NCBI GenBank assembly: GCA_051744345.1
Contig: JBNJCW010000002.1
Span: 1,176-65,175, forward strand
Direction of reading: 5' to 3'
DNA from: Actinomycetota bacterium
GTDB taxonomy: Bacteria > Actinomycetota > Humimicrobiia > Humimicrobiales > Humimicrobiaceae
DNA: 64,000 nucleotides
The translations under genes were made by a program, and so were the position numbers. Under the pieces are notes generated by a model, which did no database searches, was not told the DNA's origin, and saw only the letters and a list, made by a program, of their open reading frames with translations. Shown one piece after another: positions 15,448 to 37,271 of this stretch (the first letter of the stretch is position 1; each line of letters begins with the position of its first letter).

Positions 15448-15449
15448 TC

Positions 15450-16245: not shown

Positions 16246-16269
16246 TTTTTTATAGTACCTTCCAAATTA

Positions 16270-23192: not shown

Positions 23193-23410
23193 GGCCGATA
23201 GCTCCCTCTAGTGGACATATTTCGAATTTTTTATTTTAATGAAACGAGTACTTTAGAAGATAAATTAGATAGAATTAACACCATTTTTGTATTCCCATAA
23301 TCAAGAGTTTTATTTTCTAAGCCTCTTTATTGAAGATTTTAGGTCCATTTACCAAAAATTTACAATATAAATATAATATATTGACATCATAAAAATTTAT
23401 TTATATAAGG
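23193..23410 (+). repeat. Long direct repeat R1 (about 215 bp), near-identical to R2 at 36418-36632
   Basis: Aligns at about 95% identity with 36418..36632. Begins with the tRNA-3'-end-like core (agctccctctagtggacatatttcgaa). Confidence 0.85.
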
Positions 23411-23650
23411 TTCGGTGTTGCCTAAAAAGCTTCTATATGCCTTGTTTTGACATATTAGGTTATAGGGTATGGTATAAAAAAATCTCTATGGACCTCAATT
23501 TCCTAGACCATAATGGTAGCCTCATAAAAATTTTTGCAAATTAGATTAAAATGGTATATTCTATAATAATTGTATTTTTAATAAGATGAAAATATCTTAA
23601 TCAATATTTCTATATACAATAATAATACAAGCACAGGGAAATAAAAAGTT

Positions 23651-23696
23651 CTCCCAGTATCATAGTGGACATATTTCGAACTTATTTTTTTATTTG
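23651..23696 (+). repeat. Degenerate tRNA-Asn-3'-end-like repeat copy
   Basis: catagtggacatatttcgaacttattttttatttg matches the cores of R1 and R2 and the 35413 copy. Confidence 0.6.
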
Positions 23697-23835
23697 TCTA
23701 ATCAAATATTTTAACTTGGAGGTAGGGTTATATCTACTAAAGCCCTATACTTTTATTTGTTTTTCAAAGAGCATTTTTATTAAGTAGTTGTAAACACAAC
23801 TCTTAGATAGTGCATATAATAATCGGTTAATTAAT

Positions 23836-24126
23836 TTAGTTATTTTTTAAGTTTTTAAATGCCTCCAAGTAGTCGTCATAACGAATAGATGATTTTATAC
23901 CAAATTCAGCAAGTAAGTCTAAAACATCATTTATGGATAGGTCAAGTTCTTCCGCCATTTTTCCAATAGACACTTTACCCGTGCTATATAATTTAAGCCA
24001 ATAAAACATCCATCCTTCCCTTAATAATTCTCTTACTACTGCTGACTTTGCTTCTTTTTTTTGTGCTGATAACTTAGATATTCTATTTAATTCCTCCCTA
24101 TTTAAACGGAGACTCATTACACTCAT
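23836..24126 (-). CDS. UPF0175-family antitoxin
   Basis: C-terminal HTH-like block KMAEELDLSINDVLDLLAEFGI. Overlaps the downstream PIN-like gene by the stop codon. Confidence 0.55.
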   Translation of the reverse strand: MSVMSLRLNREELNRISKLSAQKKEAKSAVVRELLREGWMFYWLKLYSTGKVSIGKMAEELDLSINDVLDLLAEFGIKSSIRYDDYLEAFKNLKNN

Positions 24127-24127
24127 T

Positions 24128-24607
24128 TTAATTACCTTTCCTTATACGTTTTTTGGCATCTTTAATTATATCTATCGAATAACGCCCAAATTCTTGAAGT
24201 AAATTAAGTTTTGCCAAAGCAATTTTTTTATCCATATCTGCGCTAACTAAAAAATGAATTGCTGTTACAAATTTTATATTAAATATTTTACAAACTTTAA
24301 TAGCTAATCCATCGTCAGTTGCAAAAATATAATTATTCTCTCTAGTTAAGACTAATGCGGCCGCTTCGCCTTTCCCTAAAGAAAAATCTTTACAAACCTT
24401 CTCAATAACTTTCTTATTTGGATTTTTATTTAATTTGATCCTTCCTTCATCAATAAATCCTTTAATAATTTTGGAATCCATAGTTTCTTTAAATAAAACT
24501 TCTTTTTTTACTATTTCGGGTATAACTCCAATATGCTGCTTTAAAACCAATTTTAGAATATCCACCTTAGCTAACAAAATCAATGTAGAAGAATCAAAAA
24601 TTATCAA
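24128..24607 (-). CDS. DUF3368/PIN-like nuclease toxin
   Basis: N-terminal IIFDSSTLILLAKV (PIN acidic motif). Operon with a UPF0175 gene. Confidence 0.6.
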   Translation of the reverse strand: MIIFDSSTLILLAKVDILKLVLKQHIGVIPEIVKKEVLFKETMDSKIIKGFIDEGRIKLNKNPNKKVIEKVCKDFSLGKGEAAALVLTRENNYIFATDDGLAIKVCKIFNIKFVTAIHFLVSADMDKKIALAKLNLLQEFGRYSIDIIKDAKKRIRKGN

Positions 24608-25203
24608 TATTACCTCATTATTACAATTAACTACATTCGTAGTTTATCAGAAAAAAAGAATTGCATCAATACTTAAAAAGAATAATAGGAAAATAGTAAT
24701 CCCGTAGAGCTTATGGGTTTAAAAACTTTAAAAATTATAGACTTAGAGTTAATGCGCGTTAGTTTGACAGCATAGCCCTAACACCATTCCCCCAGATCCC
24801 CCGCTATAAGGCTTTAAGGGAATTTTTTATTGTAAAAAGATAGGCAGGAAGTATTCCCCGGAAAATATAATGGAGTGCCTTAATTGTATATCCTGCTCCA
24901 ATGAGCAGGATAACCTTTATCTTTTTGATTATAGGAGCAGGGTATCAGATGCCATAGGTGATGCCCTGGGTATTGACTTTGCCAAAAAGAGGCTTCGCAG
25001 GGCAGAGATAAAAAATATTTTGGCAGAAAGCAAAAAATGAGCTAAAGTGTCCAAAGCTTACATTATGTACAATAACCTGACTTTGACAGCAAAAAGGATC
25101 AAAAAAAGGCCAAAACCCCTTTAAACACAGGGATTCCAGCCTTTTCAAATTTTCACAAATATGTGGTATATATAGATAAAAACAGTGAGTATAATTACAG
25201 GGA

Positions 25204-25698
25204 TCACTCATTTATTGGTGCAGACATTACATTTAGCTGGTGCTGTCCATCTTTACGAGAAATTTCAAGATCCACTATCATCATCTTTATATGGGAAAAG
25301 CTCTTTTTTTTCCGTTCCAGCATCATTGATAAAATTGCTTTTACCGTTTTTTTATCAAGGTTGTCTTTTATGTATTTTTCAATATCCCCATCTATCAATT
25401 TTTTTCTTTCTTTCGGGGGAAAGGAAGAAGAATTCCAGGCTAATGCGGAAAGTTGAATTGCATTAAAAAATGCCCTATCGCTTTCACATTCATCGGTTAA
25501 AGGTTCTGCAAATTCAAGTAATATTTCTGACATTTTTTCATTTCGGGTATTGGGAGTTACAATCGTTCCTTCAGGCAAATCTTTACGCAGACCACTTGAG
25601 AAAAGTATTTTGCCTTTATTATTTTTCCCATAACAGCACTTTTTATATTTTTTCCCACTGCCGCAGGGGCATGGTTGATTTCTGCCGATTCTTGCCAT
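25204..25698 (-). CDS. SEC-C motif domain protein
   Basis: N-terminal RNQPCPCGSGKKYKKCC (SecA C-terminal Zn-binding motif). Confidence 0.55.
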   Translation of the reverse strand: MARIGRNQPCPCGSGKKYKKCCYGKNNKGKILFSSGLRKDLPEGTIVTPNTRNEKMSEILLEFAEPLTDECESDRAFFNAIQLSALAWNSSSFPPKERKKLIDGDIEKYIKDNLDKKTVKAILSMMLERKKKSFSHIKMMIVDLEISRKDGQHQLNVMSAPINE

Positions 25699-25782
25699 AT
25701 ATCTTTCCCCTTATTCTGATGATAGTTTCATCTATCCTGCTGCTGTTATTTGTAGTTGACAGGCAACCGCCTCCATTCTTTT

Positions 25783-26559
25783 TTATCTATACTTCCTAAG
25801 ATTAAAAGGTTCTACCTTTATCGTAACGATGCTGTCTGTGCCGATCCTGAGCAACATATTCCCGATCTGCTGCATAGTATACGTCTTACCATAGGTCTTG
25901 ATGCATGCGTCAGTCCAGCCCCAGTCGACTTTGCCGATAAGGCCTTCGCCGGTTAATAGACGGAGGGCATCAAATTCATTGTTTTCCAGAGCATAATACA
26001 ATCTTCTATTAACCTCATTCTTGTTAAAATATTCAGGATCATAAATGCGTCCCCTGGTATCCTTTTCGGCCCAGTCCAGCATATTCTGCCTTTCCGGATT
26101 ACTTTTATCGCTTATTATCCTAACAAAATCAGTATAACCGGAAATCCCTCCTACATCCTCCGGAGGTCTTTCCCTTGCGCCTCCCATACATTCTGGCATT
26201 GAATTTCTCTTTGTATCCTTGAGCTTTCTCTCTACAATGATCTTATGCTTCCAGGTATCGCCAAAATCATATTCGTATTCAAATTCATCATGTTCATCAA
26301 GGAATTTATCGATTGTGGTATCCTCCGGGTCAAGCTCCACTATATCATCCCCAAATAATTCAGCCGGCGAATAATCATCAAACGGCTCGGTTATGACAAT
26401 ATTGGGGAAATCAAACTTAAATAGATGGTATTCCAGCCAGCCGAAAGAAGCCTGTATTATCTGGTGAAACTGCTGGAAAGTTATGCCTCCCGGAATCTTT
26501 AATCTCCGCCATATCTCCGGTTCTATGCCTTTTATGGATATCTTGATTTTGTATGCCAT
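25783..26559 (-). CDS. Plasmid pRiA4b ORF-3-like (PF07929) family protein
   Basis: N-terminal YKIKISIKGIEPEIWRRLKIPGGITFQQFHQIIQASFGWLEYHLFKF is characteristic of the family. Confidence 0.7.
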   Translation of the reverse strand: MAYKIKISIKGIEPEIWRRLKIPGGITFQQFHQIIQASFGWLEYHLFKFDFPNIVITEPFDDYSPAELFGDDIVELDPEDTTIDKFLDEHDEFEYEYDFGDTWKHKIIVERKLKDTKRNSMPECMGGARERPPEDVGGISGYTDFVRIISDKSNPERQNMLDWAEKDTRGRIYDPEYFNKNEVNRRLYYALENNEFDALRLLTGEGLIGKVDWGWTDACIKTYGKTYTMQQIGNMLLRIGTDSIVTIKVEPFNLRKYR

Positions 26560-26721
26560 TTATTCTTAGATCCTTTCAATTATTGTTTCTTATATCAAAT
26601 ATAGCATAGCCGATGTTACATTAAAAACTTTTGTTGTATTAAATTTTTCAAAGCAAAAACAGAGAATTATTTAAGCCTTGAGATCAGTATTTATTTGATA
26701 GAATTATAAAAAACATTTTAG

Positions 26722-26775
26722 GTGTCCGGATAGTCCCGTTACCCTGTCCGGATGTTTCCGTTATAGTGTCCGGAT
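26722..26775. promoter_or_regulatory. Three direct repeats of GTGTCCGGAT spaced 22 bp, in the upstream region of the PRiA4_ORF3-like gene
   Basis: Copies at 26722-26731, 26744-26753 and 26766-26775. A fourth copy is at 13207-13216. Confidence 0.5.
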
Positions 26776-26785
26776 GACACCGTAA

Positions 26786-28137
26786 TCAATCTTCATTTTC
26801 ATAACCGCCCCAGAAGCTCCGTTTCCTTTTATGTTCATTATAAATCCGTTCCTTGAATATCAAATGATCCTCAAAGTCTTTCCAATCAGAGACCCTTACC
26901 GCCATTTTATCCAGTTTTTTAAGGTAGCGGATACCGTGGTAATATGCTTTTGAATATCTCCGATCCAGAATTGAGAACAGGAGGCTCCTGTAAATAACAC
27001 TCGCTGCAAGGAAACGCCCCTCTGACTCCATTAATTTTACTAAATTAAGAAGGCCTGTATAATGATCCCCATCAAGCTGTCCGGCCCTATTAATAATATA
27101 TTCCTCTGCTTCATCGATCTTTGCGATTCATTAAGAACTGAGCATCATTCAGGCTTAACCTGTCATTTGAAACTATGGAAGCCACTGCCTCTGATAAAAC
27201 TTCATCCCTTTTCCCAGCCCCGATAACATTCAGTAACTCCTGAAGTCTTTCTGTAGAATGATAAGATCTGAATCTTTTATAGAGAAGATCTATCAATTTA
27301 TCCTTATAGCCAGGCTTTTGATAGATCTTTACCAAAAGCTCCTCTGCCTCATACTTCCGTAATGAATCATCTTCGGGAATCTTTTTCAACCATGAAAGAG
27401 CGGTTTCTGCATCACCACTTTTAAAAATATACACAGGCAATATCATATAATGCAGCTGCTGATAGTTTTTCACTGGAAGCAACCTGTATTTGCTTAAAGA
27501 GCTCTGCGTCTTTTATCTGCCGCGCCAATGATCCGACAAGGCCCAGGTAATGCCGTCTCCAGCGGCTCCCCTCTCCACTATCGGCCAGTTCCTGGATCTT
27601 ATCGATCATGGACCGGATCATTTTTTCAGGCAGGCATTCCGAAGCGCAGTCAATCAGTGTATCCCTTATCCCGTAATCATCATTCCTGTTAAGCTCAAGT
27701 ATGATGCCAGCAACTTTTTCCTTGTCTTCGCATTCTGCCGCATACCTGGTAAATAATTCTTTTGCATCATAACAAAATATATCCCCTATATTGCCGCTGG
27801 AATCGTCGCATTGATTAAATATCTCCTCATCTGCCTTATAGAAAAGCGAGATAAGCTCAAGACCCGTAGAGGGGTCCTTAACTCCTGCCCTCAGGTCTTC
27901 CAGCAATTCCCCAAGCTTTTGGGCAAAATCTTCGGATTCATTCCACTCATAAAAATGCCTGGACCTTTTTATCCCGGACAGCTTCTTTTTGAACCGCTGT
28001 ATATTCTCTTCAGGACCGGAGATCATGCGCTCAACCAGGTTATCTGCAGTATCGGACCATTCTGCAAGTTCCAGCAGCGCATCTGCCAGGGTTTCGGCTC
28101 CCAGGTCTGTTAATTTTTGTCTGCGTTTGTCTTCCAT
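26786..28137 (-). pseudogene. Hypothetical protein gene disrupted by a frameshift (about 440 aa if fused)
   Basis: ORFs 27421..28137 and 27111..27482 overlap by 62 nt. Removing one A from the A5 run at 27423-27427 fuses ...DIACVYF to KSGDAETALSW.... A third ORF, 26786..27031, continues in another frame. Confidence 0.45.
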
Positions 28138-28580
28138 ATTATCTTATATGCTCAACTAAAATCTCTTCCAATTAATTCCCTGATAAACAGGCAAAACGTG
28201 TTCCACTTTTCAGGAAAATCACTACTCCCCTTGGAACTAAAAACTTCACTATTATCAAAATAGATTTCAAGGGACCAACTTGTCCCATCCAATACTTCAT
28301 TGTTATTATAATTTTTTCCCATTTAGTAATTTCTATTGAATCTAGTTAATTAGTAAAGGCAGCCAATTTTTTATTAGGAATTTTAATTTTCTCTTTATCT
28401 TCCTTTACAAAACATTTTTTATAGGCAATATACTGTGCCACAGAATTTTCAAAGTCTATTTCTACACTGAACCGCCGACTGAAACTTTTAATGTTTCTAT
28501 CTGCATTACTGATCGGCTCCTTTTTATTATTTCAGGTTTTTCATTTGTTAAGAATTTGGTTCTATGTCTAGTAGGTTTTC

Positions 28581-29555
28581 TTAATCAAGACCGTACTTAC
28601 TCTTAAACTCCCCTATCCAATCTATATGTCTGTCAGATCTTGATATTTCCCCTACAAGATCCTGTATCGTTATCCTGCTGACCAGATGACTATATTTCCT
28701 GGGTATGAAAGAAACAAGAAATGGCCACAGGCCTCTTTCTTTGCTCTCATCAGACGCTTCTAAGAATGCTGGATTCCTCTTATCATGAAGAAGCAAAAAG
28801 GAGCCTCCTATTTTTAATGAAAATAATACTTCCCTGTAGAATTGATAATAATTTATAAATGGGCAGATAAGCCCCTTTGAGAGTTTTTCCTCATCGAACC
28901 TGAATTCTTCCATAAGATCCCAATATTTCCTGCCAATGTGGTGAAGGTAGCAATTTTTAAGACCATAGACAACAGGATTTCTGCCATCACAATCCCCGCG
29001 TTCAAAAACAGAACAGCTGCCAAACCCCCTCTCTGCCAGTTTTGATTCGATAAATATATTTCTACCCTGACCCTCTATTACAGCATCAAGAGATGTCGGT
29101 TGTCCGGAATCTTCATTAAAAACTGAACGGTCACAGCACTCAAACCTGGCCGATACTTTGCTTGAAGGCCAGTTAATACCAGCATTTTCTATCACTGATT
29201 TTAATGGATCCAGGTCATCCCTTATTATAAGGGGGGCAAGCAGGTTAAATAACATAGCCTGGCTGCTTAATCCGTGATGAAGGTATTTGTGCAAGGGAAA
29301 GGCTTCCTTGCCAAGGTTTCTCTGGTTTTCTTCCAGGATGTATTCTGAGACTTCGGGGCATATAATATTTTTTGGCCAGCTTATAAGAGAATCCAAACAA
29401 TACAGCATTTTGGGATGGGTTTTAAATCCTTTTTCCCTGAACCATCTACTGGATGAATTCCGGAGTTCGGCTTCAAATTCTTTGTAGCGTTTATGAGGCC
29501 AGGTTCTTGCAAGACGCTTATTATTATCTTTTATTGTCTCTAATTCATCTTGCAT
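28581..29555 (-). CDS. Hypothetical protein with PD-(D/E)xK-like nuclease motif
   Basis: SLDAVIEGQGRNIFIESKLAE (D...E.K) is preceded by the His-rich stretch HKYLHHGLSS. No recognised family. Confidence 0.35.
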   Translation of the reverse strand: MQDELETIKDNNKRLARTWPHKRYKEFEAELRNSSSRWFREKGFKTHPKMLYCLDSLISWPKNIICPEVSEYILEENQRNLGKEAFPLHKYLHHGLSSQAMLFNLLAPLIIRDDLDPLKSVIENAGINWPSSKVSARFECCDRSVFNEDSGQPTSLDAVIEGQGRNIFIESKLAERGFGSCSVFERGDCDGRNPVVYGLKNCYLHHIGRKYWDLMEEFRFDEEKLSKGLICPFINYYQFYREVLFSLKIGGSFLLLHDKRNPAFLEASDESKERGLWPFLVSFIPRKYSHLVSRITIQDLVGEISRSDRHIDWIGEFKSKYGLD

Positions 29556-29765
29556 AAAAACAGAAATCCTTGCTTACTAATCATCAATATTTATCTGATT
29601 TAGAAATTCCTTTATTTTTATCATATCATCATTACAAAATCTTCCTATCTTTCTTTTATTTTTTCAGAGATCTCGTCAATCGAAGCATCAATCTTGTCGT
29701 TGGGATTTAATATTTTTTTTTGATAAACAGTATTATATTTTTGATATAAATTATTCCCAATAATT

Positions 29766-30188
29766 GAAAAGAAGAAATCAAAGATTGAGGATCTTGTAAT
29801 TGATGGTACCTTTGACAGAATGACATACTCCAAGAAAAAAAATGAAATTGAGACTGATATTATATCAAAGAAAACTGAGTTATGAGATTATGAAAATGGA
29901 TTAATAGATATATATCAGTTAATTGAATACGGAAAGAAATTTTTATTTAATCTATCAAATTTATGGCTTAATTTAGATACTGATAAAAAAAGAAAATTTC
30001 AAAATGTGCTATTTCCTGAAGGTATTTACATTGAAAATGATAAGTTTCGAACCACCGAAATAGCCAGCATTTTTAAGTTTTTCAGAGATTATAATTTTGA
30101 AGAATCAAACTTGGCTCCCCTAAGTAGTGAAACTTCGAACCTTTTTTTGAAAGTATTATTACGGTTAAAGGAAATTGATGTTATATAA
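29766..30188 (+). pseudogene. C-terminal remnant of a large serine recombinase, with an in-frame stop
   Basis: Translation ...IDGTFDRMTYSKKKNEIETDIISKKTEL*DYENGLIDIYQLIEYGKKFLFNLSNLWLNLDTDKKRKFQNVLFPEGIYIEND... resembles TP901/SpoIVCA-type integrase C-terminal tails. No catalytic domain upstream. Confidence 0.4.
30111..30153 (+). repeat. tRNA-Asn-3'-end-like repeat copy (inside the recombinase remnant)
   Basis: ttggctcccctaagtagtgaaacttcgaacctttttttgaaag. Confidence 0.6.
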
Positions 30189-30376
30189 ATTGAAACAGAA
30201 CAAACAGCGAATCGAAAGATTTTACAAAGTAAACGGTACAAACATAAAGAAATTGTGAAGAGAAGCTCCAACATAATGATCTAAAGGATTGGAACTTTTT
30301 CTCTTATTTATTATATTAAGCTTGAAATTTAAAAAGTTTTTGCTATGAATGTATAATGTTACCCTGGTTATTTCTA

Positions 30377-31411
30377 TTATTTTTCATTATAACTTTTCTT
30401 AAAATTTTCCCAATATTCTATATTTTGTTTAATCAGCTCTGGAATATTAAGATTATAAGGACATTTTTCAATACACTCTTTACATTCAACACAACCTCTA
30501 GCTTTTTCTATAGCTTTTTCCTGCCAATAGATTGCAGAATCATAATCGGTCCTTTTTATTATACTCTTGGTAATTAAAACAGTACTTATTGGAATTCCTT
30601 CCGGACAAGGCTGGCAATAACCACAACGATGGCACCATTCATCTCCAAGTTTTTCTTTTATTTTTTTAATTCTCTGTTTTTCTTTATAAGCTAATGGTCT
30701 GGTATTCTCAACTATACCTACAATTTCTTTCATTTCTTCTGTCTCTTCTATCCCCGGATCCGGAACCACCTCTTTAAATTGGGAAAGATATCTAAAAGCC
30801 AGATTAGCATCTTCAAGCATTCCACCACCCATTGGTTTCATTGCTATAAAACCAATATTTAGCTTCTTGGCTAAGGGTATCAATTTTTTTTCAGCTTCAG
30901 TGTCTATAAAATTTAAAGGGATTTGGACTACTTGGAATTTATTGGTCAACATGATTTTTTCGGCTACATCAGGGCTATGAGAACTAAAAGCATAATATCT
31001 TACTTTTCCTTTAGCTACAGCATCTTCTAATCCCTCATAAGCCCCACCTGTAGCCATGACTTTTTTAAAATTATCTTGGTCATTTATAGCATGCAGATGA
31101 TATATATCGATATAATCAGTACCTAATCTTTTTAAGCTTAGATCCAAATGAGATAAAAATGTTTTTTTATCTTTAGCATTCGATTTAGAAGAAAGCACTA
31201 ATTTTTCTCGTTTAAACTTCTTTATAGCTTCTCCGATTTTTTCTTCACTATCACCATAAGCATTAGCAGTATCTATGAAATTTATACCCATATTAATAAC
31301 ATCTCTTATTACTTTAACGGCGTTCTTTTTAGTAAGACGCATTATGGGTATACCTCCTAAAGCTACTCTGCTCACCTTTAGGTCTGTGTTTCCAAATTTT
31401 ATCTTTTTCAT
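30377..31411 (-). CDS. Aldo/keto reductase with C-terminal 4Fe-4S cluster domain
   Basis: AKR fold with start MKKIKFGNTDLKVSRVALGG and an AAGGA RBS. C-terminal CHRCGYCQPCP...CVECKECIEKCP. Confidence 0.8.
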   Translation of the reverse strand: MKKIKFGNTDLKVSRVALGGIPIMRLTKKNAVKVIRDVINMGINFIDTANAYGDSEEKIGEAIKKFKREKLVLSSKSNAKDKKTFLSHLDLSLKRLGTDYIDIYHLHAINDQDNFKKVMATGGAYEGLEDAVAKGKVRYYAFSSHSPDVAEKIMLTNKFQVVQIPLNFIDTEAEKKLIPLAKKLNIGFIAMKPMGGGMLEDANLAFRYLSQFKEVVPDPGIEETEEMKEIVGIVENTRPLAYKEKQRIKKIKEKLGDEWCHRCGYCQPCPEGIPISTVLITKSIIKRTDYDSAIYWQEKAIEKARGCVECKECIEKCPYNLNIPELIKQNIEYWENFKKSYNEK

Positions 31412-31435
31412 GTAAAATCCTTTCTTATGTTTTGT

Positions 31436-32494
31436 TAGGGGGTAGTCAGTTTGCTCCACCTAATAAACTATGTTCAATTGCTTCCCCAATTGTAACCATA
31501 AGTTACATCATCCTCGACAATTGGCCCGGTAACAAATACTTGTTCCAAAAGTCTTCTAAAAACAAGTGCACGGCTAAGAGAAGTACACCTATTGAACCGA
31601 AATGTAAACTCCTCCAAGTAAAATTGCAAATGGCCGGGAATGACTGAACCTTGATGGGTACCGAGGTTCCACCGCTTAAGCAAGCTTGGAACTCGATAAA
31701 CACCTGGCATAGAGACATGGGAAGGATCCCCAGAAGATGAGAGCACAGTAACTTTTCACCTGTATTCCCATGTTCTGGCACCCTGTTGCAACCACGCCAC
31801 CCATCAGTGTGTATCAACGCTCCAGAAACTACCACATTACATATAAATGGTAGAAGACTTTCACCAGAAGTATCCGGAACATGGCGCATACGCACTCTTC
31901 CAAATCCTTTGGGTTGCTTGATCTCTACAGCAATAGCCACAATACTTTTAGTAGTGCCACGGTCTCGTTTGCCACCACCAACTAAAGCTTCATCCACTTC
32001 CACATCGCCTGATAATTGTTTACTTTTAAGCGTCTACCATCGCCGCCCTAAAACGCTGTAGCATTGTCCATACTACTCGGTAGCTTGTACCCAGAGCACA
32101 CCCTAAGGTTTTAGCCGATAATTCCGCTCTTAGCCATGGTTACGTGCCAAGCTGCCTCAAACCAAATCGTTAGCAGTGTTCTTGTTTTATCAAAGATTGT
32201 TCCTGTAGTCACTGATGCCTGATGGCGACAAATTGGACAAGCCAATCGGTCCAAGGCTTTCCTTCCATGGAACTGAAGACTTTTTGCATGATGGACAGAT
32301 AAATCCTTCAGGCCAAAGCAATTTTGACAAGAAATTCGCACAGGCAATGTCGTCAGAAAGCATTTCCACAAATCCCCGGTAAGTATTCGAGTAGTCAAAT
32401 CCTTCAACTAATGCCAATTTCAATATTTCTTTGCTCATTATGAATGTTTCTCTATTCATTTTAGCAGAGGTGGAGCTAATTGACCTCCCTCCCC
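31436..32494 (-). mobile_element. Degenerate IS1595-family insertion sequence (frameshifted transposase)
   Basis: Overlapping minus-strand ORFs encode an N-terminal Zn ribbon (WPEGFICPSCKKSS; LACPICRHQ...TGTIFDKTRTLLTIWFEAAWHV) and an ISXO2-like DDE region (EVDEALVGGGKRDRGTTKSIVAIAVE). GC is elevated and the termini share GCTCCACCT inverted ends. Confidence 0.55.
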
Positions 32495-32600
32495 TTAATT
32501 ATATTTATTCTTAAATTGTTTAACAATAAAAAAGATTATAGATTTTCAACTGTGTCATTTTCACTATAAAAGATGAGTTAAAAATAAAATGATTGATTGC

Positions 32601-32660
32601 TGGCTCCCCCAAGTAATGAAATTTCGAACCAATTTATGAATGAAATGATTAAATTAAAAG
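32601..32660 (+). repeat. tRNA-Asn-3'-end-like repeat copy
   Basis: tggctcccccaagtaatgaaatttcgaaccaatttatgaatgaaatgattaaattaaaagg. Confidence 0.7.
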
Positions 32661-32753
32661 GCTCTTTGTTTTTTACAAGTATTGTTGATTTTCTACACCA
32701 CCTTTACAGAACATGCTCCCAGCAGAAGAGCCCTTCTTGCTGCTGGAATGGTT

Positions 32754-32951
32754 TTATCCTTTGCTACAGTATCCACTTGCAAAGCGCCTGGCTCTAATCT
32801 CAGATATTATATCGGATTGATTTTCCCCTTCTTCCATTTTCTTACCGGAAAGTAGTGCGATAATTTCTTTCTTTTCATCCTCTGAGAGGTCTAGTAGCAT
32901 TTGGTAGAGTTTCTTTTTTGTATCTTTTGCCATACTTTTCCTTTCGAACAT
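32754..32951 (-). CDS. Small hypothetical protein (possible regulator)
   Basis: 65-aa ORF (MAKDTKKKLYQMLLDLSEDEKKEIIALLSGK...). No recognised family. Confidence 0.3.
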   Translation of the reverse strand: MFERKSMAKDTKKKLYQMLLDLSEDEKKEIIALLSGKKMEEGENQSDIISEIRARRFASGYCSKG

Positions 32952-33240
32952 ACTTAATTTAGACCTATATTATCAAACGTATGTTCGTACTTCAACAATA
33001 CTTTTAAAAAGAGCCAATTAAAAAGCTTACTTATTAAATAAACAATATAAGTGTATGTTTTAAAAAGCATATTATAGACATTATCATGACATGATTAACG
33101 CTTTTAATAACTCCATACTTTAAGAATTCAGTCTTGCATATGCTCTGCCATATTTTTAATTCCTCAAACTTAAAGTTGAATAATTCATGTTTTAAGATTA
33201 GTATTTTAAAACAAGCAATCATTTTTTTAAAAGCTTTTTA

Positions 33241-34422
33241 ATGGCAAATAAGACTGTTAATAGAATAAAGCAAAATCAGATACTTGTATTTGGTTTTTCG
33301 CAGCTACTTGTGCTATCTGTATCCAGGCTGATCATTGGTCCTCTAATACCGCTTATTTCAGAAGAGCTAAAAATAGGTTTGGACTTTATAGGTTCAGCTA
33401 TTTCTGTAAGTATTTTTCCCTTGTTTTTAGTATCACTAAGTGCCGGCAATCTCATAGAGCTAATAGGTCTAAAGAAAGTCCTTTATATCGGATTGGGCAT
33501 GAGCATAGCTGGTTCCATGATGCTGTATTTTTCACATTCCTTTCCCACCTTTATGGTTGCGTACTTACTGCTACAATCTGGATTTGGAGTTCTGGTTATA
33601 GGAAATTTTTCTATCATAGGAAGTCTGTATCCCACCCGCAAGACATCAAGCCTAATTAAATTAGATATGGGAGTTGTAGCAGGTTTTGTTATTGCTCCTA
33701 TTATGGTTAGTCTGATGCTTTTTATAAAGGCTGATTGGCGTAATTACTATCTTTTTAGTCTGATATTACTGTTTGCTTTAGTGGTTATATTATGGAAGCT
33801 TAAGGTGCCCAGGGCGGTTCGTATAAGGAACGATCTAAAGACCTTGTTTATGACTAACAAGAGTATTATTTCCAATAACAGTTTTGTTATGTGCGGGATG
33901 ATAATCTTTTTTTATGCTTCCGTTATGAATACTTTTTTTATGTGGTTTACGTCTTATTTTCAGAATGTTGATATAGAAATTAACATTAGCTCTCTTTTCC
34001 TTGCAATATATGGTGTAGCTATTTTCATTGGTATGATGCTACGGGGCAAATTGATCAAGCATTTCAAAGAGAAGGGTATCCTGCTTTTTGGTTTTATAGC
34101 ATCCTTATGCCTGCTTATAGGAATTCTGTTTATACAAGATTTGATATTTAAGAATATCCTGATATTCTTATTTGGTATTACTATTGCTGGCAATTTTCCA
34201 ATTGTCTTTTCCATAGGGTCAGGACTTTTTCCGGAATATGCCAACTCTGTTTCCGGGCTAATGGTTGCTTTTGCAAACTTAGGAACAATGGTGTTTCAGT
34301 ATCTTTCAGGGTATTTTTCAGAATACTATTCAAAAAACAGTGTTTTATATATAAATATAGCTATTTTACTGATACTTATTATTCTAACCTCTATTCTAAA
34401 TTATTATAAAAAGTTTAAGTAA
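33241..34422 (+). CDS. MFS transporter
   Basis: 393 aa with about 12 hydrophobic helices. No motif beyond MFS topology recognised. Confidence 0.75.
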   Translation: MANKTVNRIKQNQILVFGFSQLLVLSVSRLIIGPLIPLISEELKIGLDFIGSAISVSIFPLFLVSLSAGNLIELIGLKKVLYIGLGMSIAGSMMLYFSHSFPTFMVAYLLLQSGFGVLVIGNFSIIGSLYPTRKTSSLIKLDMGVVAGFVIAPIMVSLMLFIKADWRNYYLFSLILLFALVVILWKLKVPRAVRIRNDLKTLFMTNKSIISNNSFVMCGMIIFFYASVMNTFFMWFTSYFQNVDIEINISSLFLAIYGVAIFIGMMLRGKLIKHFKEKGILLFGFIASLCLLIGILFIQDLIFKNILIFLFGITIAGNFPIVFSIGSGLFPEYANSVSGLMVAFANLGTMVFQYLSGYFSEYYSKNSVLYINIAILLILIILTSILNYYKKFK

Positions 34423-34752
34423 ATAGATAATATGTTTATAATGTCAATAATTTTTTAGCTCTTTTTAAGGATTGTTGATTTTTTATTTTGAATTTATTGG
34501 CTTAATTCTTAGTTTTCCCCTCTTTTTTACTAATACCTGCATACTATTTCTAATAAATAGTTCAGATAATTGATTAAATGCATTAGAACCAAATTCAGAC
34601 GGTTGAAAAAGTTTCTCTCTCTTCAAAGTATGTCGTATTTTTTAAACTTATCTTTATATATCAACAATGTTCTTAAAAAGAGCCAATTTTTATTATAAAT
34701 TAAGAATTACAGTTTTCTGTTTTTATGATATATGCTATATGGTTTTCTGAAG

Positions 34753-34813
34753 TGGCTCCCCCAACAGATGAAATTTCGAACCAATTTCTTAATGAATTAT
34801 TAAAGTTGAAAAT
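34753..34813 (+). repeat. tRNA-Asn-3'-end-like repeat copy
   Basis: tggctcccccaacagatgaaatttcgaaccaatttcttaatgaattattaaagttgaaaat. About 80% identical to the 32601 copy. Confidence 0.7.
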
Positions 34814-34883
34814 AAATTTTATGCAGTAATTGACAAAAAGTATATTATTTAGTACTATTTAAAGTACTAAAAGGAGTATTATT

Positions 34884-35141
34884 ATGGTAAAAATATTAAC
34901 AGCAAACGAATTAAAACAAAAAGGTGCTTCAGCATTAAAAGATGCGACCTCAAGCGACAGTGCAGTTATTATTACTGTAAGAGGAAAGAGTGAATATGTC
35001 GTTTTGCCTATTGCAGCATATAATAGCTTGAGAGAGTGCGAGCTTGAAATTGCCCTTATCGAATCAAGAAAAGATATGGAAAATGGCAAATTTATTGAAG
35101 AATCTGTTGAAGAACACATTAGAAGAATAACCGGTGAATAA
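34884..35141 (+). CDS. Phd/YefM-family antitoxin
   Basis: 85 aa. The block ITVRGKSEYVVLPIAAYNSLRE is typical of Phd/YefM. Overlaps the downstream toxin gene by 8 nt. Confidence 0.7.
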   Translation: MVKILTANELKQKGASALKDATSSDSAVIITVRGKSEYVVLPIAAYNSLRECELEIALIESRKDMENGKFIEESVEEHIRRITGE

Positions 35142-35406
35142 AATAATATATACAGAGACATATATTAAGAGAGCCAAAAAGTTTTTAAAAAATCACCCTG
35201 AAATTATTTCTCAATACGAAAAGACTTTAAAGTTAATCGAAATAAATGTATTTCACCCATCACTTCGCTTGCATAAATTAAAAGGTAAATTATCAGATTT
35301 ATATTCAGTTTCAATTAATATCTCATATAGGATATGCATTGATTTCATTATTGAAGAAAACACGATAATTCCGATTGATTTAGGAAAACATGATGATGTA
35401 TATTAA
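35134..35406 (+). CDS. YafQ/RelE-family mRNA interferase toxin
   Basis: 90 aa with the conserved features HPSLRLHKLKGKLSDLYSVSINISYRICIDF.... Confidence 0.65.
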   Translation: MNKIIYTETYIKRAKKFLKNHPEIISQYEKTLKLIEINVFHPSLRLHKLKGKLSDLYSVSINISYRICIDFIIEENTIIPIDLGKHDDVY

Positions 35407-35412
35407 AATTTG

Positions 35413-35454
35413 CTGGCTCCCCCTAGTGGACATATTTCGAACTTTTTATTTTGA
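35413..35454 (+). repeat. tRNA-Asn-3'-end-like repeat copy
   Basis: ctggctccccctagtggacatatttcgaactttttattttga. Preceded by aaatttgc, which is identical to the tRNA flank. Confidence 0.75.
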
Positions 35455-35537
35455 TAATATGTTTAATATTGATAAAATCAATAATATTAAAAATACTATA
35501 AACTATTTGATTATGCAATAAATACTTATCTTAATAA

Positions 35538-36304
35538 TTGTGGATTTTTGATTTAGAAAATAAAACTTATTTTTTATTTTTAGACGAGTCTGGTCATCAT
35601 GGCCTAAAAAAATAAATCGAGAATACCCAATATTTCTGCTTGCATGTTGTATTTTTAAAGAAACTTATTTTAAAACTATATTTCTAAAAAGAGCAAAAGA
35701 ATTGAAAATCAAGCACTTTGGGACTGATAAAATCATTTTGCATTCAAGAGATATTAGGAAATGGCAAAAGGAATTTAAGTGTCTTGGAGATATAAATAAG
35801 AGAATAGATTTTTACAAAGATTTAGATAATTTAATACAAACATCAGAGTTCACAATTATTGCTTCAGCAATAGAAAAAAATAAGCTTATCCAACAATATG
35901 GGCCCAGAGCAGATAACCCATACAATATATCACTTTCTTTTATCTTAGAAAGAAGCATATTTTATACAGATAATATTAATTGTAATTCTATTGAAATAAT
36001 AGCAGAATCACGTGGTAAAAGAGAAGATGACCAACTATACTCTCAATATCAATTAATTCTGCATAATGGGACCCATTATGTAACGAGTAATAGATTTAGA
36101 AATAAAATGAAATCTTTTAAATTTGTGGATAAAATTGATAATAATATTGGTATCCAAATCGCTGACCTTGTTGCCTATCCTATAGCAACAAAAATTATTT
36201 ATCCTAAAAGAGTTAATTTAGCATTTGAAGTATTAGAAGATAAAATTTATAGACAATTTCCTGGTGCTGATTATATAGGGTATGGATTAAAAATATTCCC
36301 ATAA
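35538..36304 (+). pseudogene. DUF3800 family protein gene interrupted by a frameshift at an A7 tract
   Basis: N-terminal frame gives LWIFDLENKTYFLFLDESGHHGLKK*, which is the DUF3800 N-motif. The main frame resumes PKKINREYP...MKIKHFG... and includes IQIADLVAYP. An A7-to-A8 change at 35606-35612 restores one ORF. Confidence 0.6.
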
Positions 36305-36417
36305 ACGAAACAAGTCCCCTCAGGGACTTGCCGATCGTGATCCACAATCCAATAATACTATAACAAAATTAGAATTAGTTTGTCAATAATTCAAAAATCC
36401 ATTGACATTTAAAAATC

Positions 36418-36632
36418 CATGGCTCCCCCTAGTGGACATATTCCGAACTTTTTATTTTAATGAAACCAGTACTTTAGAAGATAAATTAGATAGAATTAAC
36501 ACTATTTTTGTATTCCCATAATCAAGAGTTTTATTTTGTAAGCCTCTTTATTGAAGGTTTTAAACCCATTTCCCAAAAATTTACAATATAAAGATAATAT
36601 ATTGACATCATAAATTTATTTTATATAATTAT
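36418..36632 (+). repeat. Long direct repeat R2 (about 215 bp), carrying a sigma70-like promoter for brnT-brnA
   Basis: About 95% identical to 23193..23410. Ends with TTGACA, 17 nt, then TATAAT about 8 nt before the brnT ATG. Confidence 0.85.
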
Positions 36633-36635
36633 TTT

Positions 36636-36902
36636 ATGATAATCTATGATAAAAATAAGGCCATAAAATTAAGATATGAGCGCAATATTGAGATTGAAGA
36701 CATCTTAGATATCATTATTCATAAAAAATATTTAGATATATTAGAACATCCAAAAAGAGCGGGACAGCAAATTTTCATTCTTGAATATAGAGATTATATA
36801 CATGTTGTACCTTTTGTTATTGATAATGACAACAACATTATAATAAAAACAGTATTCCCCAGCAGGAATTTTCATAAGATATATAAGGAGGAATTAAAAT
36901 GA
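36636..36902 (+). CDS. BrnT-like toxin (DUF497/DUF4258-like)
   Basis: 88-aa protein with C-terminal IIIKTVFPSRNFHKIY resembling BrnT RIISARKA...Y. Overlaps the downstream BrnA-like gene. Confidence 0.5.
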   Translation: MIIYDKNKAIKLRYERNIEIEDILDIIIHKKYLDILEHPKRAGQQIFILEYRDYIHVVPFVIDNDNNIIIKTVFPSRNFHKIYKEELK

Positions 36903-37189
36903 AATATGAATTAGATACAGATGAAAAGATTATTGAAAGAGAAGCAACAGAATATAAAAAAGTTTCTGAAGAGAAAAAGAAAAATATCGAGTCAGTTTTA
37001 GAAAGAAGTTCAAAAAAAAGAGTTGTGACTCTAAGACTTAATAATAATGATCTTGAGCAATTAAAATCCATTGCAAATATCGAAGGTATCCCCTATCAGA
37101 CATTAATATCAAGCATACTACATAAGTATATCAATGACAGATTTGTTGATAAAAAAGAAGTATTTAAGATTTCAGAATTATTGAAATGA
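36899..37189 (+). CDS. BrnA-like antitoxin
   Basis: RVVTLRLNNNDLEQLKSIANIEGIPYQTLISSILHKYI matches the BrnA C-terminal RHH-like motif (VPYQSLIK). Confidence 0.55.
   Translation: MKYELDTDEKIIEREATEYKKVSEEKKKNIESVLERSSKKRVVTLRLNNNDLEQLKSIANIEGIPYQTLISSILHKYINDRFVDKKEVFKISELLK

Positions 37190-37196: not shown

Positions 37197-37271
<75 letters not shown>

What the first reader, a model, noticed from the sequence alone, without database searches (positions are those of the whole stretch)
23193..36632. Two roughly 215-bp near-identical direct repeats 13.2 kb apart (R1 at 23193-23410 and R2 at 36418-36632)
R1 and R2 align over about 215 bp at roughly 95% identity. Both begin with the tRNA-end-like core. 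Both then carry ttttattttaatgaaac.agtactttagaagataaattagatagaattaacac...tttacaatataaa.ataatatattgacatcataaa.

This level of identity is far above every other repeat in the window, which implies a recent duplication or gene conversion. Direct repeats of this length could mediate RecA-dependent deletion or excision of the intervening 13 kb (UPF0175/PIN TA, GC-rich island, AKR, IS remnant, MFS, phd/yafQ, DUF3800).

R2 is positioned as the promoter and leader of brnT-brnA. R1 has no plus-strand gene downstream within 400 bp. It sits next to the minus-strand brnTA number 1.
Basis: seen in the sequence. Interest (0 to 1): 0.6.

Follow-up and report, generated by a model that had tools for sequence, protein, structure and literature searches.

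The report
Recombinase scars heading tRNA-Asn gene cassettes
The two 215-bp repeats are matching left ends of two small gene cassettes stacked beside a tRNA-Asn gene; each starts with a junction scar carrying the last 33 codons of a large serine recombinase gene, and the stack looks like an integron-like, recombinase-built array in uncultured Actinomycetota.

Summary
The repeat is real: 23198-23393 matches 36419-36614 at 93% without gaps.

It is not an isolated duplication. R1 and R2 belong to a family of at least 11 same-strand "cores" between 14.6 and 37.2 kb. These end at an intact tRNA-Asn gene (37197-37271, minus strand).

The core plus the next ~70 nt is a coding relic. It reads WLPLVDIFRTFYFNE...FVFP* and matches the C-terminus of ~500-aa large serine recombinases. 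In related metagenomic loci these genes read into tRNA 3' ends.

I read each core as an attL-type junction left by site-specific integration at the tRNA-Asn CCA end. After the relic, R1 and R2 share ~95 nt of intergenic DNA with a sigma-70 promoter. In R2 this is a perfect TTGACA-16-TATAAT, 7 nt before the ATG of a toxin-antitoxin pair.

Whole cassettes bounded by TGGCTCCCC recur in other Actinomycetota MAGs in different neighbourhoods. No recombinase gene lies in the window.

The closest known analogues are tandem accretion arrays with cis-mobilizable elements, such as the Dehalococcoides ssrA islands. The small cassette size and the att site inside the recombinase ORF make this a new variant. 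Mobility itself is inferred, not shown.

The parts
23199..23410 (+). R1: the left end of a cassette. It holds a degenerate core (23199-23227, TAGCTCCCTC TAGTGGACATATTTCGAAT), then the recombinase C-terminal relic *LPLVDIFRIFYFNETSTLEDKLDRINTIFVFP* (23199-23300). After that come ~80 nt of intergenic DNA and a promoter-like TTGACA (23381-23386)-17-TATAAG (23404-23409). No ORF follows it.
23661..23692 (+). Partial A-type core (TAGTGGACATATTTCGAAC) that lacks TGGCTCCCC. It closes the 454-bp 'empty' R1 cassette. It also heads the 6.4-kb segment holding UPF0175/PIN-like, SEC-C, PRiA4_ORF3, broken DUF6880 and REase-ARP genes.
   Evidence: 22.7 bits
30112..30140 (+). B-type core (TGGCTCCCCTAAGTAGTGAAACTTCGAAC). 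It heads a 2.5-kb cassette with an aldo-keto reductase/Fer4 gene (-) and an IS1595 transposase remnant (-).
   Evidence: 42.4 bits
32601..32629 (+). B-type core, which reads WLPQVMKFRTNL*. It heads a 2.15-kb cassette with an MFS transporter gene (33241-34422, +).
   Evidence: 45.0 bits
34753..34781 (+). B-type core heading the 661-bp phd/yafQ-higB-like toxin-antitoxin cassette (34884-35406, +). The same cassette is found between cores in L001 (96%) and L011 (80.5%).
35414..35442 (+). A-type core with a diverged tail (WLPLVDIFRTFYFDNMFNIDKINNIKNTINYLIMQ*). It heads the 1006-bp DUF3800 cassette (35702-36304, +).
   Evidence: 49.6 bits
36420..36632 (+). R2: the left end of the last cassette. It holds the core (36420-36448) and the recombinase C-terminal relic WLPLVDIFRTFYFNETSTLEDKLDRINTIFVFP* (36420-36521, stop TAA at 36519-36521). 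Intergenic DNA follows, then a perfect sigma-70-type promoter TTGACA-16-TATAAT at 36602-36629.
36636..37189 (+). Cargo of the R2 cassette: an 88-aa putative toxin with no Pfam hit (36636-36902) and a 96-aa CopG/BrnA-like antitoxin (36899-37189). The ATG lies 7 nt after the -10 element, so the mRNA is probably leaderless. The stop codon lies 7 nt before the tRNA.
   Evidence: the whole cassette 36420-37206 is 91.9% identical to L009 3945-4727
37197..37271 (-). Intact tRNA-Asn(GTT) gene downstream of dnaG-rpoD. Its 3' end reads TGGCTCCCCGAGTAGGATTCGAACC on the + strand. This is the inferred attB and the fixed end of the array.
14610..17489 (+). A distal group of four degenerate cores at about 14612, 15450, 16820 and 17466, in the same orientation. 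They are interleaved with a Fer4 protein gene, DUF305 and SHOCT genes. They are separated from the proximal array by bipA and other genes. This is probably an older part of the same array.
   Evidence: 19.2, 15.8, 19.7, 11.5 bits

Best explanation
R1 and R2 are two copies of the left end of one family of small gene cassettes. These cassettes are stacked, all in one orientation, next to the 3' (CCA) end of the tRNA-Asn gene.

Each copy has three pieces:
1. A ~30-nt core, TGGCTCCCC(C)TAGTGGACATATTTCGAAC. Its first 9-10 nt equal the antisense of the tRNA-Asn acceptor end.
2. A continuation in the same reading frame that encodes the last 33 residues and the stop codon of a large serine recombinase.
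3. About 95 nt of intergenic DNA ending in a sigma-70 promoter that fires into the cargo. In R2 the cargo is a toxin-antitoxin pair with a near-leaderless start.

Inferred mechanism. The family's mobile elements carry a large serine recombinase gene whose 3' end spans its own attP. The crossover lies inside TGGCTCCCC. Integration at the tRNA-Asn 3' end leaves an attL-type junction on the far side, made of a chromosomal or previous-cassette arm, TGGCTCCCC, and the P' arm with the 33-codon tail. It also fuses the recombinase gene to the tRNA, giving ...NWLPE*. Repeated integration, followed by excision that uses an inner junction instead of the outer one, would deposit or capture recombinase-free cassettes. 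The result is an array of cis-mobilizable, integron-like cassettes.

What is shown:
- the repeat family and its single orientation;
- the coding relic and its homology to serine recombinase C-termini;
- recombinase genes reading into tRNA-Asn or into cores in related loci;
- whole cassettes recurring in other genomes with boundaries at TGGCTCCCC;
- the consensus promoter.

What is inferred:
- the position of the crossover;
- the deposition/capture cycle;
- present-day activity;
- promoter function.

R1 itself has a mutated core and no cargo, so it is probably a dead relic. Its unusually high identity to R2 may also owe something to gene conversion.
For: Repeat family and orientation:
- Cores in the window sit at 14612, 15450, 16820, 17466, 23199, 23661, 30112, 32601, 34753, 35414 and 36420, then the tRNA at 37197. 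All are on the + strand.
- Across the window plus 59 related loci there are 105 cores. In 28 of 28 sources with two or more cores, all cores share one orientation. Spacing is 81-6449 bp, median 1366 bp.

Coding relic:
- In the frame of TGG the copies read WLP(L/V/I)(V/L)D(I/T/A)FRTFYF... Differences are synonymous or conservative: CTA/TTA, GTG/GTT/GTA, GAC/GAT, CGA/AGA.
- 29 of 42 distinct A-type cores stop exactly at codon 34, against a chance value of 0.017.

Homology to recombinases:
- In L008 the core is preceded in frame by ~110 residues of a recombinase C-terminus.
- 126 homologous fragments were found, some named 'site-specific DNA recombinase' by their source.
- Full-length relatives of ~490-530 aa carry Resolvase, Recombinase and Zn_ribbon_recom domains.
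- They end either in antisense-tRNA peptides (..WLPE*..WLPDMDSNHE..WRPHRESNPD) or in native tails.

attR-type junction:
- In L011-L014, with the same recO-glyQS-ppdK-dnaG-rpoD-tRNA-Asn synteny, a recombinase relic reads ...NKCSNWLPE* into tRNA-Asn. Cores and TA cassettes lie to its left.

Cassette modularity:
- Window 36420-37206 equals L009 3945-4727 at 91.9% over 788 nt, with unrelated DNA on both sides.
- The brnA-like end plus TGGCTCCCCG is joined to a different core in L006.
- The phd/yafQ cassette lies between cores in the window, L001 and L011. The UPF0175/PIN-like cassette is adjacent to it in L001 but 10 kb away in the window.
- Different cassettes abut tRNA-Asn in L003 (ABC transporter) and L005 (AbiE).

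Other points:
- R2 holds a 12/12 consensus promoter at 36602-36629.
- No recombinase lies in the array.
- GC is 0.27-0.38 in the array and 0.42-0.49 beyond the tRNA.
Against: - No recombinase gene of this family lies in the 64-kb window, so an active enzyme in this genome is not shown.
- Identity to the real tRNA is limited to TGGCTCCCC(G) plus a TTCGAAC motif. There are 13 nt between the two in the cores and 8 nt in the tRNA.
- The crossover position is inferred only from where similarity breaks. For the phd/yafQ cassette, the left break against L011 falls after the 30-nt core rather than inside TGGCTCCCC.
- Large serine integrases normally recombine only attP with attB. Excision needs a directionality factor, which was not identified.
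- Tandem insertion requires each cassette's right end to act as a B-type arm. Only a loose consensus (AAAWTTGC) is seen there.
- The codon-position signal in the tail is modest: entropy 0.61, 0.50 and 0.73 for positions 1, 2 and 3.
- The sample of loci was ascertained through the core itself.
- Many recombinase relics start at the same residue (GRITQDEYDKK), and the model does not explain this.
Confidence: 0.72

Rival explanations
1. Plain intragenomic duplication or gene conversion. A ~200-bp promoter-bearing segment was copied within this genome by homologous or replicative processes. The resemblance to the tRNA end and to other cores would then be incidental.
For: R1 and R2 are closer to each other than either is to the orthologous unit in L009: 94.7% against 81.8% over the first 132 nt. 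The rest of the R2 cassette is ~92% identical to L009. This fits some homogenisation between R1 and R2. R1 has no cargo behind its promoter.
Against: - The unit starts exactly at a core that recurs at least 11 times in the window and 105 times in 60 sources, always in one orientation.
- Its first 102 nt are a conserved recombinase C-terminal relic.
- The same unit heads the same cassette in another genome.

Duplication alone explains none of these. At most it adds to the main explanation.
Confidence: 0.12
2. A classical tandem genomic-island graveyard made by tyrosine integrases. On this view the cores are decayed displaced 3' fragments of tRNA-Asn from successive phage or island insertions. 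The 215-bp unit would be a conserved island end holding arm-type integrase binding sites.
For: The array sits at a tRNA gene, the commonest target of tyrosine integrases (Islander abstract, PMC4383910). The region has low GC and carries TA and defence-type cargo.
Against: - The cores are not decayed tRNA copies. They form a separate family with a constant 13-nt spacer against 8 nt in the tRNA, and with codon-like variation.
- They are homologous to the 3' end of serine recombinase genes.
- No tyrosine integrase was found among the ORFs scanned in the window array or in eight related loci.
- Units of median 1.4 kb are far smaller than phages or islands.
Confidence: 0.06
3. The unit is functional in its own right. 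It might be a small-protein gene (33-45 aa), a structured RNA, or an integron attC-like folded recombination site.
For: The tail ORF is conserved, with its stop at a fixed codon, in 29 of 42 copies. Gene callers predicted 31-76-aa ORFs over it in many metagenomes.
Against: - The predicted ORFs have unrelated N-termini and no shared start codon. The conserved part always begins at WLP.
- R1 begins with a stop codon.
- Rfam finds only the tRNA.
- Folding of the core and of the whole unit is no better than shuffled sequence, with z from -0.8 to +1.35.
- Pfam finds nothing for the peptide.
- No IntI is present, and cargo genes lie on both strands.
Confidence: 0.05

Closest known systems
Dehalococcoides ssrA genomic islands (ssrA-GIs; McMurdie et al. 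2011, PMC3146451)
   Same: - Several tandem islands lie downstream of a small stable-RNA gene.
- Each is bounded by a direct repeat of that gene's 3' end.
- They are built by a ~540-aa CcrB-like large serine recombinase.
- About half of the islands lack the integration module and were interpreted as cis-mobilizable elements gathered by accretion.
   Different: - The target here is tRNA-Asn, not tmRNA.
- The identical segment is only 9-10 nt plus a P' arm, against a 20-bp repeat there.
- The units here are tiny: 0.45-6.4 kb in the window, and median 1.4 kb across loci.
- The recombinase gene of this family reads into the target gene, and the att core lies inside its ORF. Each junction therefore carries a 33-codon coding relic.
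- No integration module (DsiA, ParB, Mom) is seen in the window.
Cis-mobilizable elements and site-specific accretion (ICESt1/ICESt3-type; review PMC5704250)
   Same: The elements have lost integration genes but keep attL and attR. They sit in tandem at the 3' end of a target gene. Composite excision patterns allow capture and co-mobilization.
   Different: Those systems use tyrosine integrases and elements of tens of kb that are decayed ICEs or IMEs. Here the units are single-operon cassettes with clean boundaries. They resemble modules rather than decay products, and the recombinase is a serine enzyme.
Integron gene-cassette arrays (own knowledge)
   Same: - Arrays of small, 0.5-2.5 kb, mostly single-operon cassettes.
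- Each carries one recombination site, and all sites share one orientation.
- The arrays are rich in toxin-antitoxin pairs.
- The same cassette is found in different orders in different genomes.
   Different: - No IntI tyrosine recombinase and no attI are present.
- The sites show no attC-like fold.
- The sites are double-strand att-like sequences homologous to a serine recombinase 3' end.
- Cargo genes lie on both strands and bring their own promoters.
- The fixed end is a tRNA gene.
Recombinases with the att site inside their own gene: archaeal SSV-type 'suicidal' tyrosine integrases (PMC8371274) and the streptococcal serine-integrase element IME_Spy2096_SNF2 (PMC5357655)
   Same: The recombination site lies within the recombinase ORF. 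Integration therefore changes or splits the gene, and part of its coding sequence is left at the other end of the element.
   Different: SSV-type enzymes are archaeal tyrosine recombinases that are split into two sizeable fragments. Here a bacterial large serine recombinase only swaps its last ~33 codons. It becomes ...WLPE* at tRNA-Asn, or regains a tail when it lies next to a resident core. The streptococcal case targets a protein-coding gene (snf2), not a tRNA.

Membership tests
Tandem accretion array / cis-mobilizable elements at a tRNA or tmRNA gene | An intact target gene at one end, with direct repeats of its 3' end, in the same orientation, bounding each unit | tested here: met
   tRNA-Asn is intact (74 bits). 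Eleven cores on the same strand share TGGCTCCCC with its 3' end. Identity to the tRNA beyond 9-10 nt is limited to a TTCGAAC motif.
Tandem accretion array / cis-mobilizable elements at a tRNA or tmRNA gene | The units lack their own integrase but keep att sites | tested here: met
   No recombinase was found among any ORF of 60 aa or more scanned in 12-37.2 kb. tblastn with full-length family members finds nothing better than E=0.3.
Tandem accretion array / cis-mobilizable elements at a tRNA or tmRNA gene | A cognate site-specific recombinase exists and is found at the junction with the target gene in some genomes | tested here: met
   L011-L014 hold a recombinase relic reading ...NWLPE* into tRNA-Asn in the same synteny. 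L008, L021, L029, L035 and L043 have a recombinase ORF reading into an A-type core.
Tandem accretion array / cis-mobilizable elements at a tRNA or tmRNA gene | Excision, circularisation or transfer of the units | not testable with these tools
   Only indirect evidence is available: the same cassettes occur in different contexts.
Large serine recombinase (serine integrase) att system | An enzyme with Resolvase catalytic domain, Recombinase domain and zinc ribbon | tested here: met
   P0167, P0156, P0160 and P0242 hit PF00239 and PF07508. P0167 and P0156 also hit PF13408. They align with the window's tail through the C-terminal region.
Large serine recombinase (serine integrase) att system | A short attP with imperfect dyad symmetry around a central crossover dinucleotide | tested here: inconclusive
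   Sites with recombinase upstream read AAGTGTTCTGAT-TGGCTCCCC-TTAGTKGACAC. GTGT...ACAC arms lie 6 and 7 nt from the 9-mer, which is suggestive only.
Large serine recombinase (serine integrase) att system | A recombination directionality factor for attL x attR | not tested
   No candidate was looked for. No intact element was recovered.
Integron | An IntI tyrosine recombinase gene with attI and Pc next to the array | tested here: not met
   rpoD and tRNA-Asn flank the array. No integrase was found among the scanned ORFs.
Integron | attC sites that fold as imperfect hairpins | tested here: not met
   DNA folds of four cores give z = 0.03, 0.70, -0.01 and -0.81 against shuffles.
   The 88-aa protein has no Pfam family at E<=0.01. 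The antitoxin passes CopG_antitoxin PF12441 (32.1 against a cutoff of 28) but falls below the BrnA cutoff (25.2 against 26.1). Pair no. 1 at 22617-23121 does match BrnT (66.5 bits) but is unrelated to pair no. 2.

The most novel reading that the evidence does not exclude
The array is a working, integron-like cassette platform. It is run in trans by a tRNA-Asn-specific large serine recombinase that carries its attP inside its own 3' end. Resident junctions (cores) serve as extra landing sites that restore the enzyme's native 33-residue C-terminus, while insertion at the tRNA itself truncates it to ...WLPE*. The state of the C-terminus would then act as a built-in directionality or activity switch. 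Excision from alternative junctions would continuously deposit, capture and shuffle single-operon cassettes (TA pairs, defence genes, transporters) among uncultured low-GC Actinomycetota (Humimicrobiia-like).
Probability: 0.2. Interest if true: 0.8.

Novelty: new variant of a known kind. Interest (0 to 1): 0.55.

Why it matters
If the model holds, these poorly known, uncultured Actinomycetota assemble small cassettes at a tRNA gene with a serine recombinase. The cassettes hold toxin-antitoxin, defence and transporter genes. This would parallel integrons in outcome (ordered, same-orientation, shuffled single-operon cassettes) while using unrelated chemistry and site architecture.

It would also be a bacterial serine-recombinase counterpart of the archaeal 'att site inside the integrase gene' arrangement. 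There is a testable idea that the swapped C-terminus regulates the enzyme. tRNA-targeting serine integrases with short defined sites could also be useful as genome-engineering tools.

For annotation, the finding explains many spurious 30-75-aa 'hypothetical proteins' and ~110-aa 'site-specific recombinase' fragments in metagenomes. It also explains why assemblies break at these repeats.

Tried and rejected
1. Exact look-up of the window's antitoxin in public assemblies found nothing on record. The source genome also did not appear in the species-representative genome scan. The organism is therefore inferred only from relatives: Actinomycetota MAGs, with names such as Candidatus Hydromicrobium.
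2. A viral-contig scan for the core gave 0 hits, so there is no evidence for a phage attP.
3. Pfam on the 33-aa tail peptides gave nothing.
4. Profile search with the tail alone returned only short ORFs with variable N-termini. This ruled out the tail being the end of a conserved full-length gene other than the recombinase found via L008.
5. A structured RNA or attC-like fold was rejected.
6. R1 plus 'brnTA no. 1' as an inverted copy of the R2 cassette was rejected, because the two TA pairs are unrelated.
7. The 467-aa gene upstream of the recombinase relic in L011 was checked as a possible fused recombinase. It has no Pfam hit and looks like a secreted cargo protein.
8. A recombinase in or near the arrays of L001-L007 was looked for among 20 ORFs and not found.
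9. Exact crossover mapping from similarity breakpoints gave consistent results for the R2 cassette, with the break inside or after TGGCTCCCC(G). It was not clean for the left edge of the phd/yafQ cassette against L011.

Full report
**1. The observation**

The two sequences are there. The repeat finder lists 23198-23393 and 36419-36614 as a 196-nt direct repeat, 93% identical without gaps and 13,221 bp apart. It is the longest and best repeat in the window. MAFFT extends the similarity to about 23410 / 36632 with one small indel.

Over the first 132 nt identity is 94.7%.

Both copies begin with a motif that resembles the antisense of a tRNA 3' end. TAGTGGACATATTTCGAA occurs four times on the + strand, against 0.06 expected.

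**2. The pair belongs to a larger family anchored at tRNA-Asn**

ARAGORN and Rfam find one tRNA, tRNA-Asn(GTT), at 37197-37271 on the minus strand. It lies just downstream of dnaG-rpoD. Read on the + strand, its 3' end is TGGCTCCCCGAGTAGGATTCGAACC.

A fuzzy search and an nhmmer profile find 'cores' of the form TGGCTCCCC-N13-TTCGAAC. They sit at 23199 (R1, degenerate), 23661 (partial), 30112, 32601, 34753, 35414 and 36420 (R2). Weaker ones sit at about 14612, 15450, 16820 and 17466. All are on the + strand, the same orientation as the tRNA's 3' end.

Two subtypes exist. Type A has ...CTAGTGGACATATTTCGAAC TTTTTATTTTAATGAA... and includes R1, R2, 35414 and 23661. Type B has ...CAAGTAATGAAATTTCGAACC....

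The segments between cores are small and each holds one operon or a few genes (Pfam):
- 36420-37196: an 88-aa protein plus a CopG/BrnA-like antitoxin.
- 35414-36419: DUF3800.
- 34753-35413: a Phd plus YafQ/HigB-like pair.
- 32601-34752: an MFS transporter.
- 30112-32600: an aldo-keto reductase/Fer4 gene plus an IS1595 remnant.
- 23661-30111: UPF0175 plus a neighbouring gene, SEC-C, PRiA4_ORF3, broken DUF6880 and REase-ARP.
- 23199-23660: no ORF.

GC is 0.27-0.38 across this region and 0.42-0.49 beyond the tRNA.

**3. The same cores occur in other genomes, in arrays, with shuffled cassettes**

One scan of species-representative genomes with TGGCTCCCCNNAGTNNNNANANTTCGAAC returned seven loci. All are from uncultured Actinomycetota MAGs. 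Each has several cores in one orientation. L003 and L005 show the same dnaG-rpoD-tRNA-Asn synteny followed by cores.

Cassettes recur in new contexts:
- The phd/yafQ cassette is 96% identical in L001. There it lies next to the UPF0175/PIN-like cassette, which is 10 kb away in the window.
- The complete R2 cassette, window 36420-37206, is 91.9% identical over 788 nt to L009 3945-4727 (assembly GCA_007120425.1). Similarity starts at the T of TGG of the left core. It ends right after TGGCTCCCCG, which in the window is the tRNA end and in L009 is another core.
- In L006 the antitoxin gene's end plus TGGCTCCCCG is joined to yet another core.
- Different cassettes abut tRNA-Asn in L003 (ABC transporter) and L005 (AbiEi/AbiEii).

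A metagenome scan with a codon-degenerate type-A pattern gave 46 more loci. Over all 60 sources there are 105 cores. All 28 sources with two or more cores have them in one orientation. Spacing is 81-6449 bp with median 1366 bp.

**4. The core and the following ~70 nt are a coding relic**

Type-A copies from different genomes differ at sites that are synonymous or conservative in the frame of TGG. Examples are CTA/TTA, GTG/GTT/GTA, GAC/GAT and even CGA/AGA. They read WLP(L/V/I)(V/L)D(I/T/A)FRTFYFNE.T.L.DELE.IK..F.F and stop at the same codon.

Of 42 distinct type-A cores, 29 stop exactly at codon 34. The chance of staying open for 20 codons and then stopping is 0.017 at this composition. Entropy per codon position is 0.61, 0.50 and 0.73, a modest coding signature.

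A profile of the peptide finds only short predicted ORFs (31-76 aa). Their N-termini are unrelated, and the conserved part always starts at WLP.

One of them (P0018, locus L008) showed what the relic comes from. Upstream of the core, in frame, lies ...GRITKDEYDKK...LASRAFELFESS..EQKRQLINFLLSNLKLEGKTLLYDVNKPFDAIL..NKCSDWLPLVDTFRTFY....

This stretch has 126 homologues in the protein collection. Some are named 'site-specific DNA recombinase' by JGI. Some come from 'Candidatus Hydromicrobium sp.' or Actinobacteria MAGs (taxonomy).

An exhaustive HMMER search with a profile of these fragments found 5505 relatives, including full-length proteins of ~490-530 aa. Those tested have Resolvase (PF00239), Recombinase (PF07508) and Zn_ribbon_recom (PF13408) domains. 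They are therefore large serine recombinases.

Their C-termini fall into two classes. Some are native tails (P0167, P0242, P0164, P0157, P0154, P0036). Others are peptides that are plainly antisense tRNA, such as ...NWLPE*...EWLPDMDSNHE...WRPHRESNPD and ...WLRRSDSNRRPSGY. The second class is what one expects if the gene reads into a tRNA 3' end in the integrated state, with TGG as the antisense of CCA.

In L011-L014, which share the window's recO-glyQS-ppdK-dnaG-rpoD-tRNA-Asn synteny, a 108-aa relic ending ...NKCSNWLPE* runs straight into tRNA-Asn. Cores and TA cassettes lie to its left, including the phd/yafQ cassette at 80.5%.

Type-B cores read WLPQV(M/V/L)KFRTNL*. They resemble the short end of another branch, such as P0086 (...SIWLPRAVKFQTIF).

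**5. Anatomy of the 215-bp unit**

- R2: core 36420-36448; relic ORF 36420-36521 (WLPLVDIFRTFYFNETSTLEDKLDRINTIFVFP, stop TAA at 36519-36521); then about 80 nt of intergenic DNA; then TTGACA-16-TATAAT at 36602-36629. This is a 12/12 match, the best in the region. The ATG of the 88-aa gene is at 36636, so the mRNA would be leaderless or nearly so.
- R1: the same layout at 23199-23410, but its core is mutated (TAGCTCCCTC; the W codon is now a stop; GAAT replaces GAAC). Its -10 element is TATAAG. What follows (23411-23660) has no ORF and ends at a partial core.

In the first 102 nt, R1 and R2 differ at six positions. Four are synonymous in the relic frame. R1 and R2 diverge at the -10 element.

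Neither the core nor the unit folds better than shuffled sequence, and Rfam sees nothing.

**6. Mechanism (inferred)**

Where a recombinase ORF precedes the core, the site reads AAGTGTTCTGAT-TGGCTCCCC-(C/T)TAGT(G/T)GACAC. The GTGT/ACAC arms are roughly symmetric about the 9-mer. This is what a serine-integrase attP looks like, and it places the crossover inside TGGCTCCCC.

In the arrays the left arm is instead cassette DNA with a loose AAAWTTGC consensus. The same 8 nt precede both the tRNA and core 35414. Array cores therefore look like attL (B-P') junctions, and the tRNA keeps a B-B' site.

A cycle would account for the data as follows. First, a composite element integrates at the tRNA. Later it excises using an inner attL rather than the outer one. 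This leaves recombinase-free cassettes next to a regenerated attB. Excision from an outer attL would capture resident cassettes instead.

This cycle would explain:
- the single orientation of the cores;
- the intact tRNA;
- the absence of recombinase genes in arrays (only 4 of the 46 metagenomic loci have recombinase sequence directly upstream of a core);
- the clean cassette boundaries;
- the shuffling between genomes.

It is the accretion/cis-mobilization logic described for streptococcal ICEs and CIMEs (PMC5704250). It was also proposed for the Dehalococcoides ssrA islands, which likewise use a large serine recombinase (PMC3146451).

Points not explained:
- How attL x attR recombination is licensed, since no directionality factor was identified.
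- Why so many recombinase relics begin at the same residue, GRITQDEYDKK.
- Why the left break of the phd/yafQ cassette against L011 falls after the core.

**7.

Right: the repeat, the tRNA-like start, a shared origin, and the promoter position of R2.

Incomplete or wrong:
- It is not a unique pair.
- Half of it is a recombinase gene relic, not a leader.
- The toxin after R2 is not a recognisable BrnT.
- 'brnTA no. 1' beside R1 is unrelated to pair no. 2 and, in the cassette model, belongs to the neighbouring segment.
- Homologous deletion between R1 and R2 remains possible but untested.

**8. Novelty**

Tandem accretion at tRNA or tmRNA genes, CIMEs, and serine-recombinase islands are all known. 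An att site inside a serine integrase gene has been noted once, in streptococci (PMC5357655). For tyrosine enzymes, a review calls self-disrupting integrases exclusively archaeal (PMC8371274).

I did not find the following combination described in the papers searched:
- a tRNA-CCA-end-specific large serine recombinase family whose last ~33 codons are exchanged on integration;
- arrays of very small, single-operon cassettes that behave like integron cassettes.

I therefore rate it a new variant of a known kind. The given finding itself, two repeats, is explained. The system behind it is moderately interesting and testable.

Noticed in passing
window 14610-17489: Four degenerate cores (~14612, 15450, 16820, 17466; 11-20 bits) lie in the same orientation. 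They are interleaved with a 244-aa Fer4 protein gene, DUF305 and SHOCT genes. They sit on the far side of bipA (17501-19312) from the main array. The whole 12-37 kb stretch has lower GC than the flanks, so bipA may lie inside an old part of the array.
   Followed up: partly
proteins P0035-P0153; L008 9805-10225; L011 10001-10327: Dozens of independent ~100-150-aa recombinase relics all begin at the same residue (G)RIT(Q/K)DEYDKK, with unrelated sequence upstream. In P0046 the upstream part is a ParB-like N-terminus. This suggests a recurrent breakpoint or a retained functional C-terminal module. It is unexplained.
   Followed up: no
L043 784-1914 and 4223-4318: A different, distantly related serine recombinase ORF (about 22% identity to the main family) reads in frame through a type-A core into the same 33-residue tail. 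A second core lies 2.4 kb downstream, after a response regulator and histidine kinase pair.
   Followed up: partly
window 32601, 34753, 30112 (type-B cores): Type-B cores read WLPQV(M/V/L)KFRTNL*. Four of twelve copies across loci carry TAA instead of CAA at codon 4. They resemble the short C-terminus of another recombinase branch (P0086). Two recombinase lineages may therefore share the tRNA-Asn site.
   Followed up: partly
window 21190-22616: A 1.4-kb stretch has no ORF of 60 aa or more on either strand, with GC about 0.285. It lies between a DUF7282/LPXTG protein gene and the BrnT/CopG pair.
   Followed up: no
window 26786-28137 and 31503-32459: Broken genes lie inside the array. DUF6880 is split over three ORFs (26786-27031, 27111-27482, 27421-28137). 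An IS1595-family transposase is split into a zinc-ribbon ORF and a DDE ORF.
   Followed up: no
window 43-82 and 2500-2539: There is a 40-nt direct repeat (85%) containing a hairpin-like AACTGGYCAT..GRCCAGCT, located after the LuxR-type response regulator gene and after the MASE3 histidine kinase gene. Another 48-nt repeat (85%) lies at 6384-6431 and 20482-20529.
   Followed up: no
window 4720-4761 vs 36786-36827: A 42-nt similarity (74%) links the 88-aa toxin gene of the R2 cassette to a spot just upstream of the OsmC gene. It may be a remnant of a paralogous toxin gene.
   Followed up: no
window 36309-36332 (minus strand): This is the only terminator-like hairpin in the region (10 bp, GGCAAGTCCCTGAGGGGACTTGTT). 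It sits right after the DUF3800 ORF. It is scored on the opposite strand, but the palindromic stem could serve either direction.
   Followed up: no
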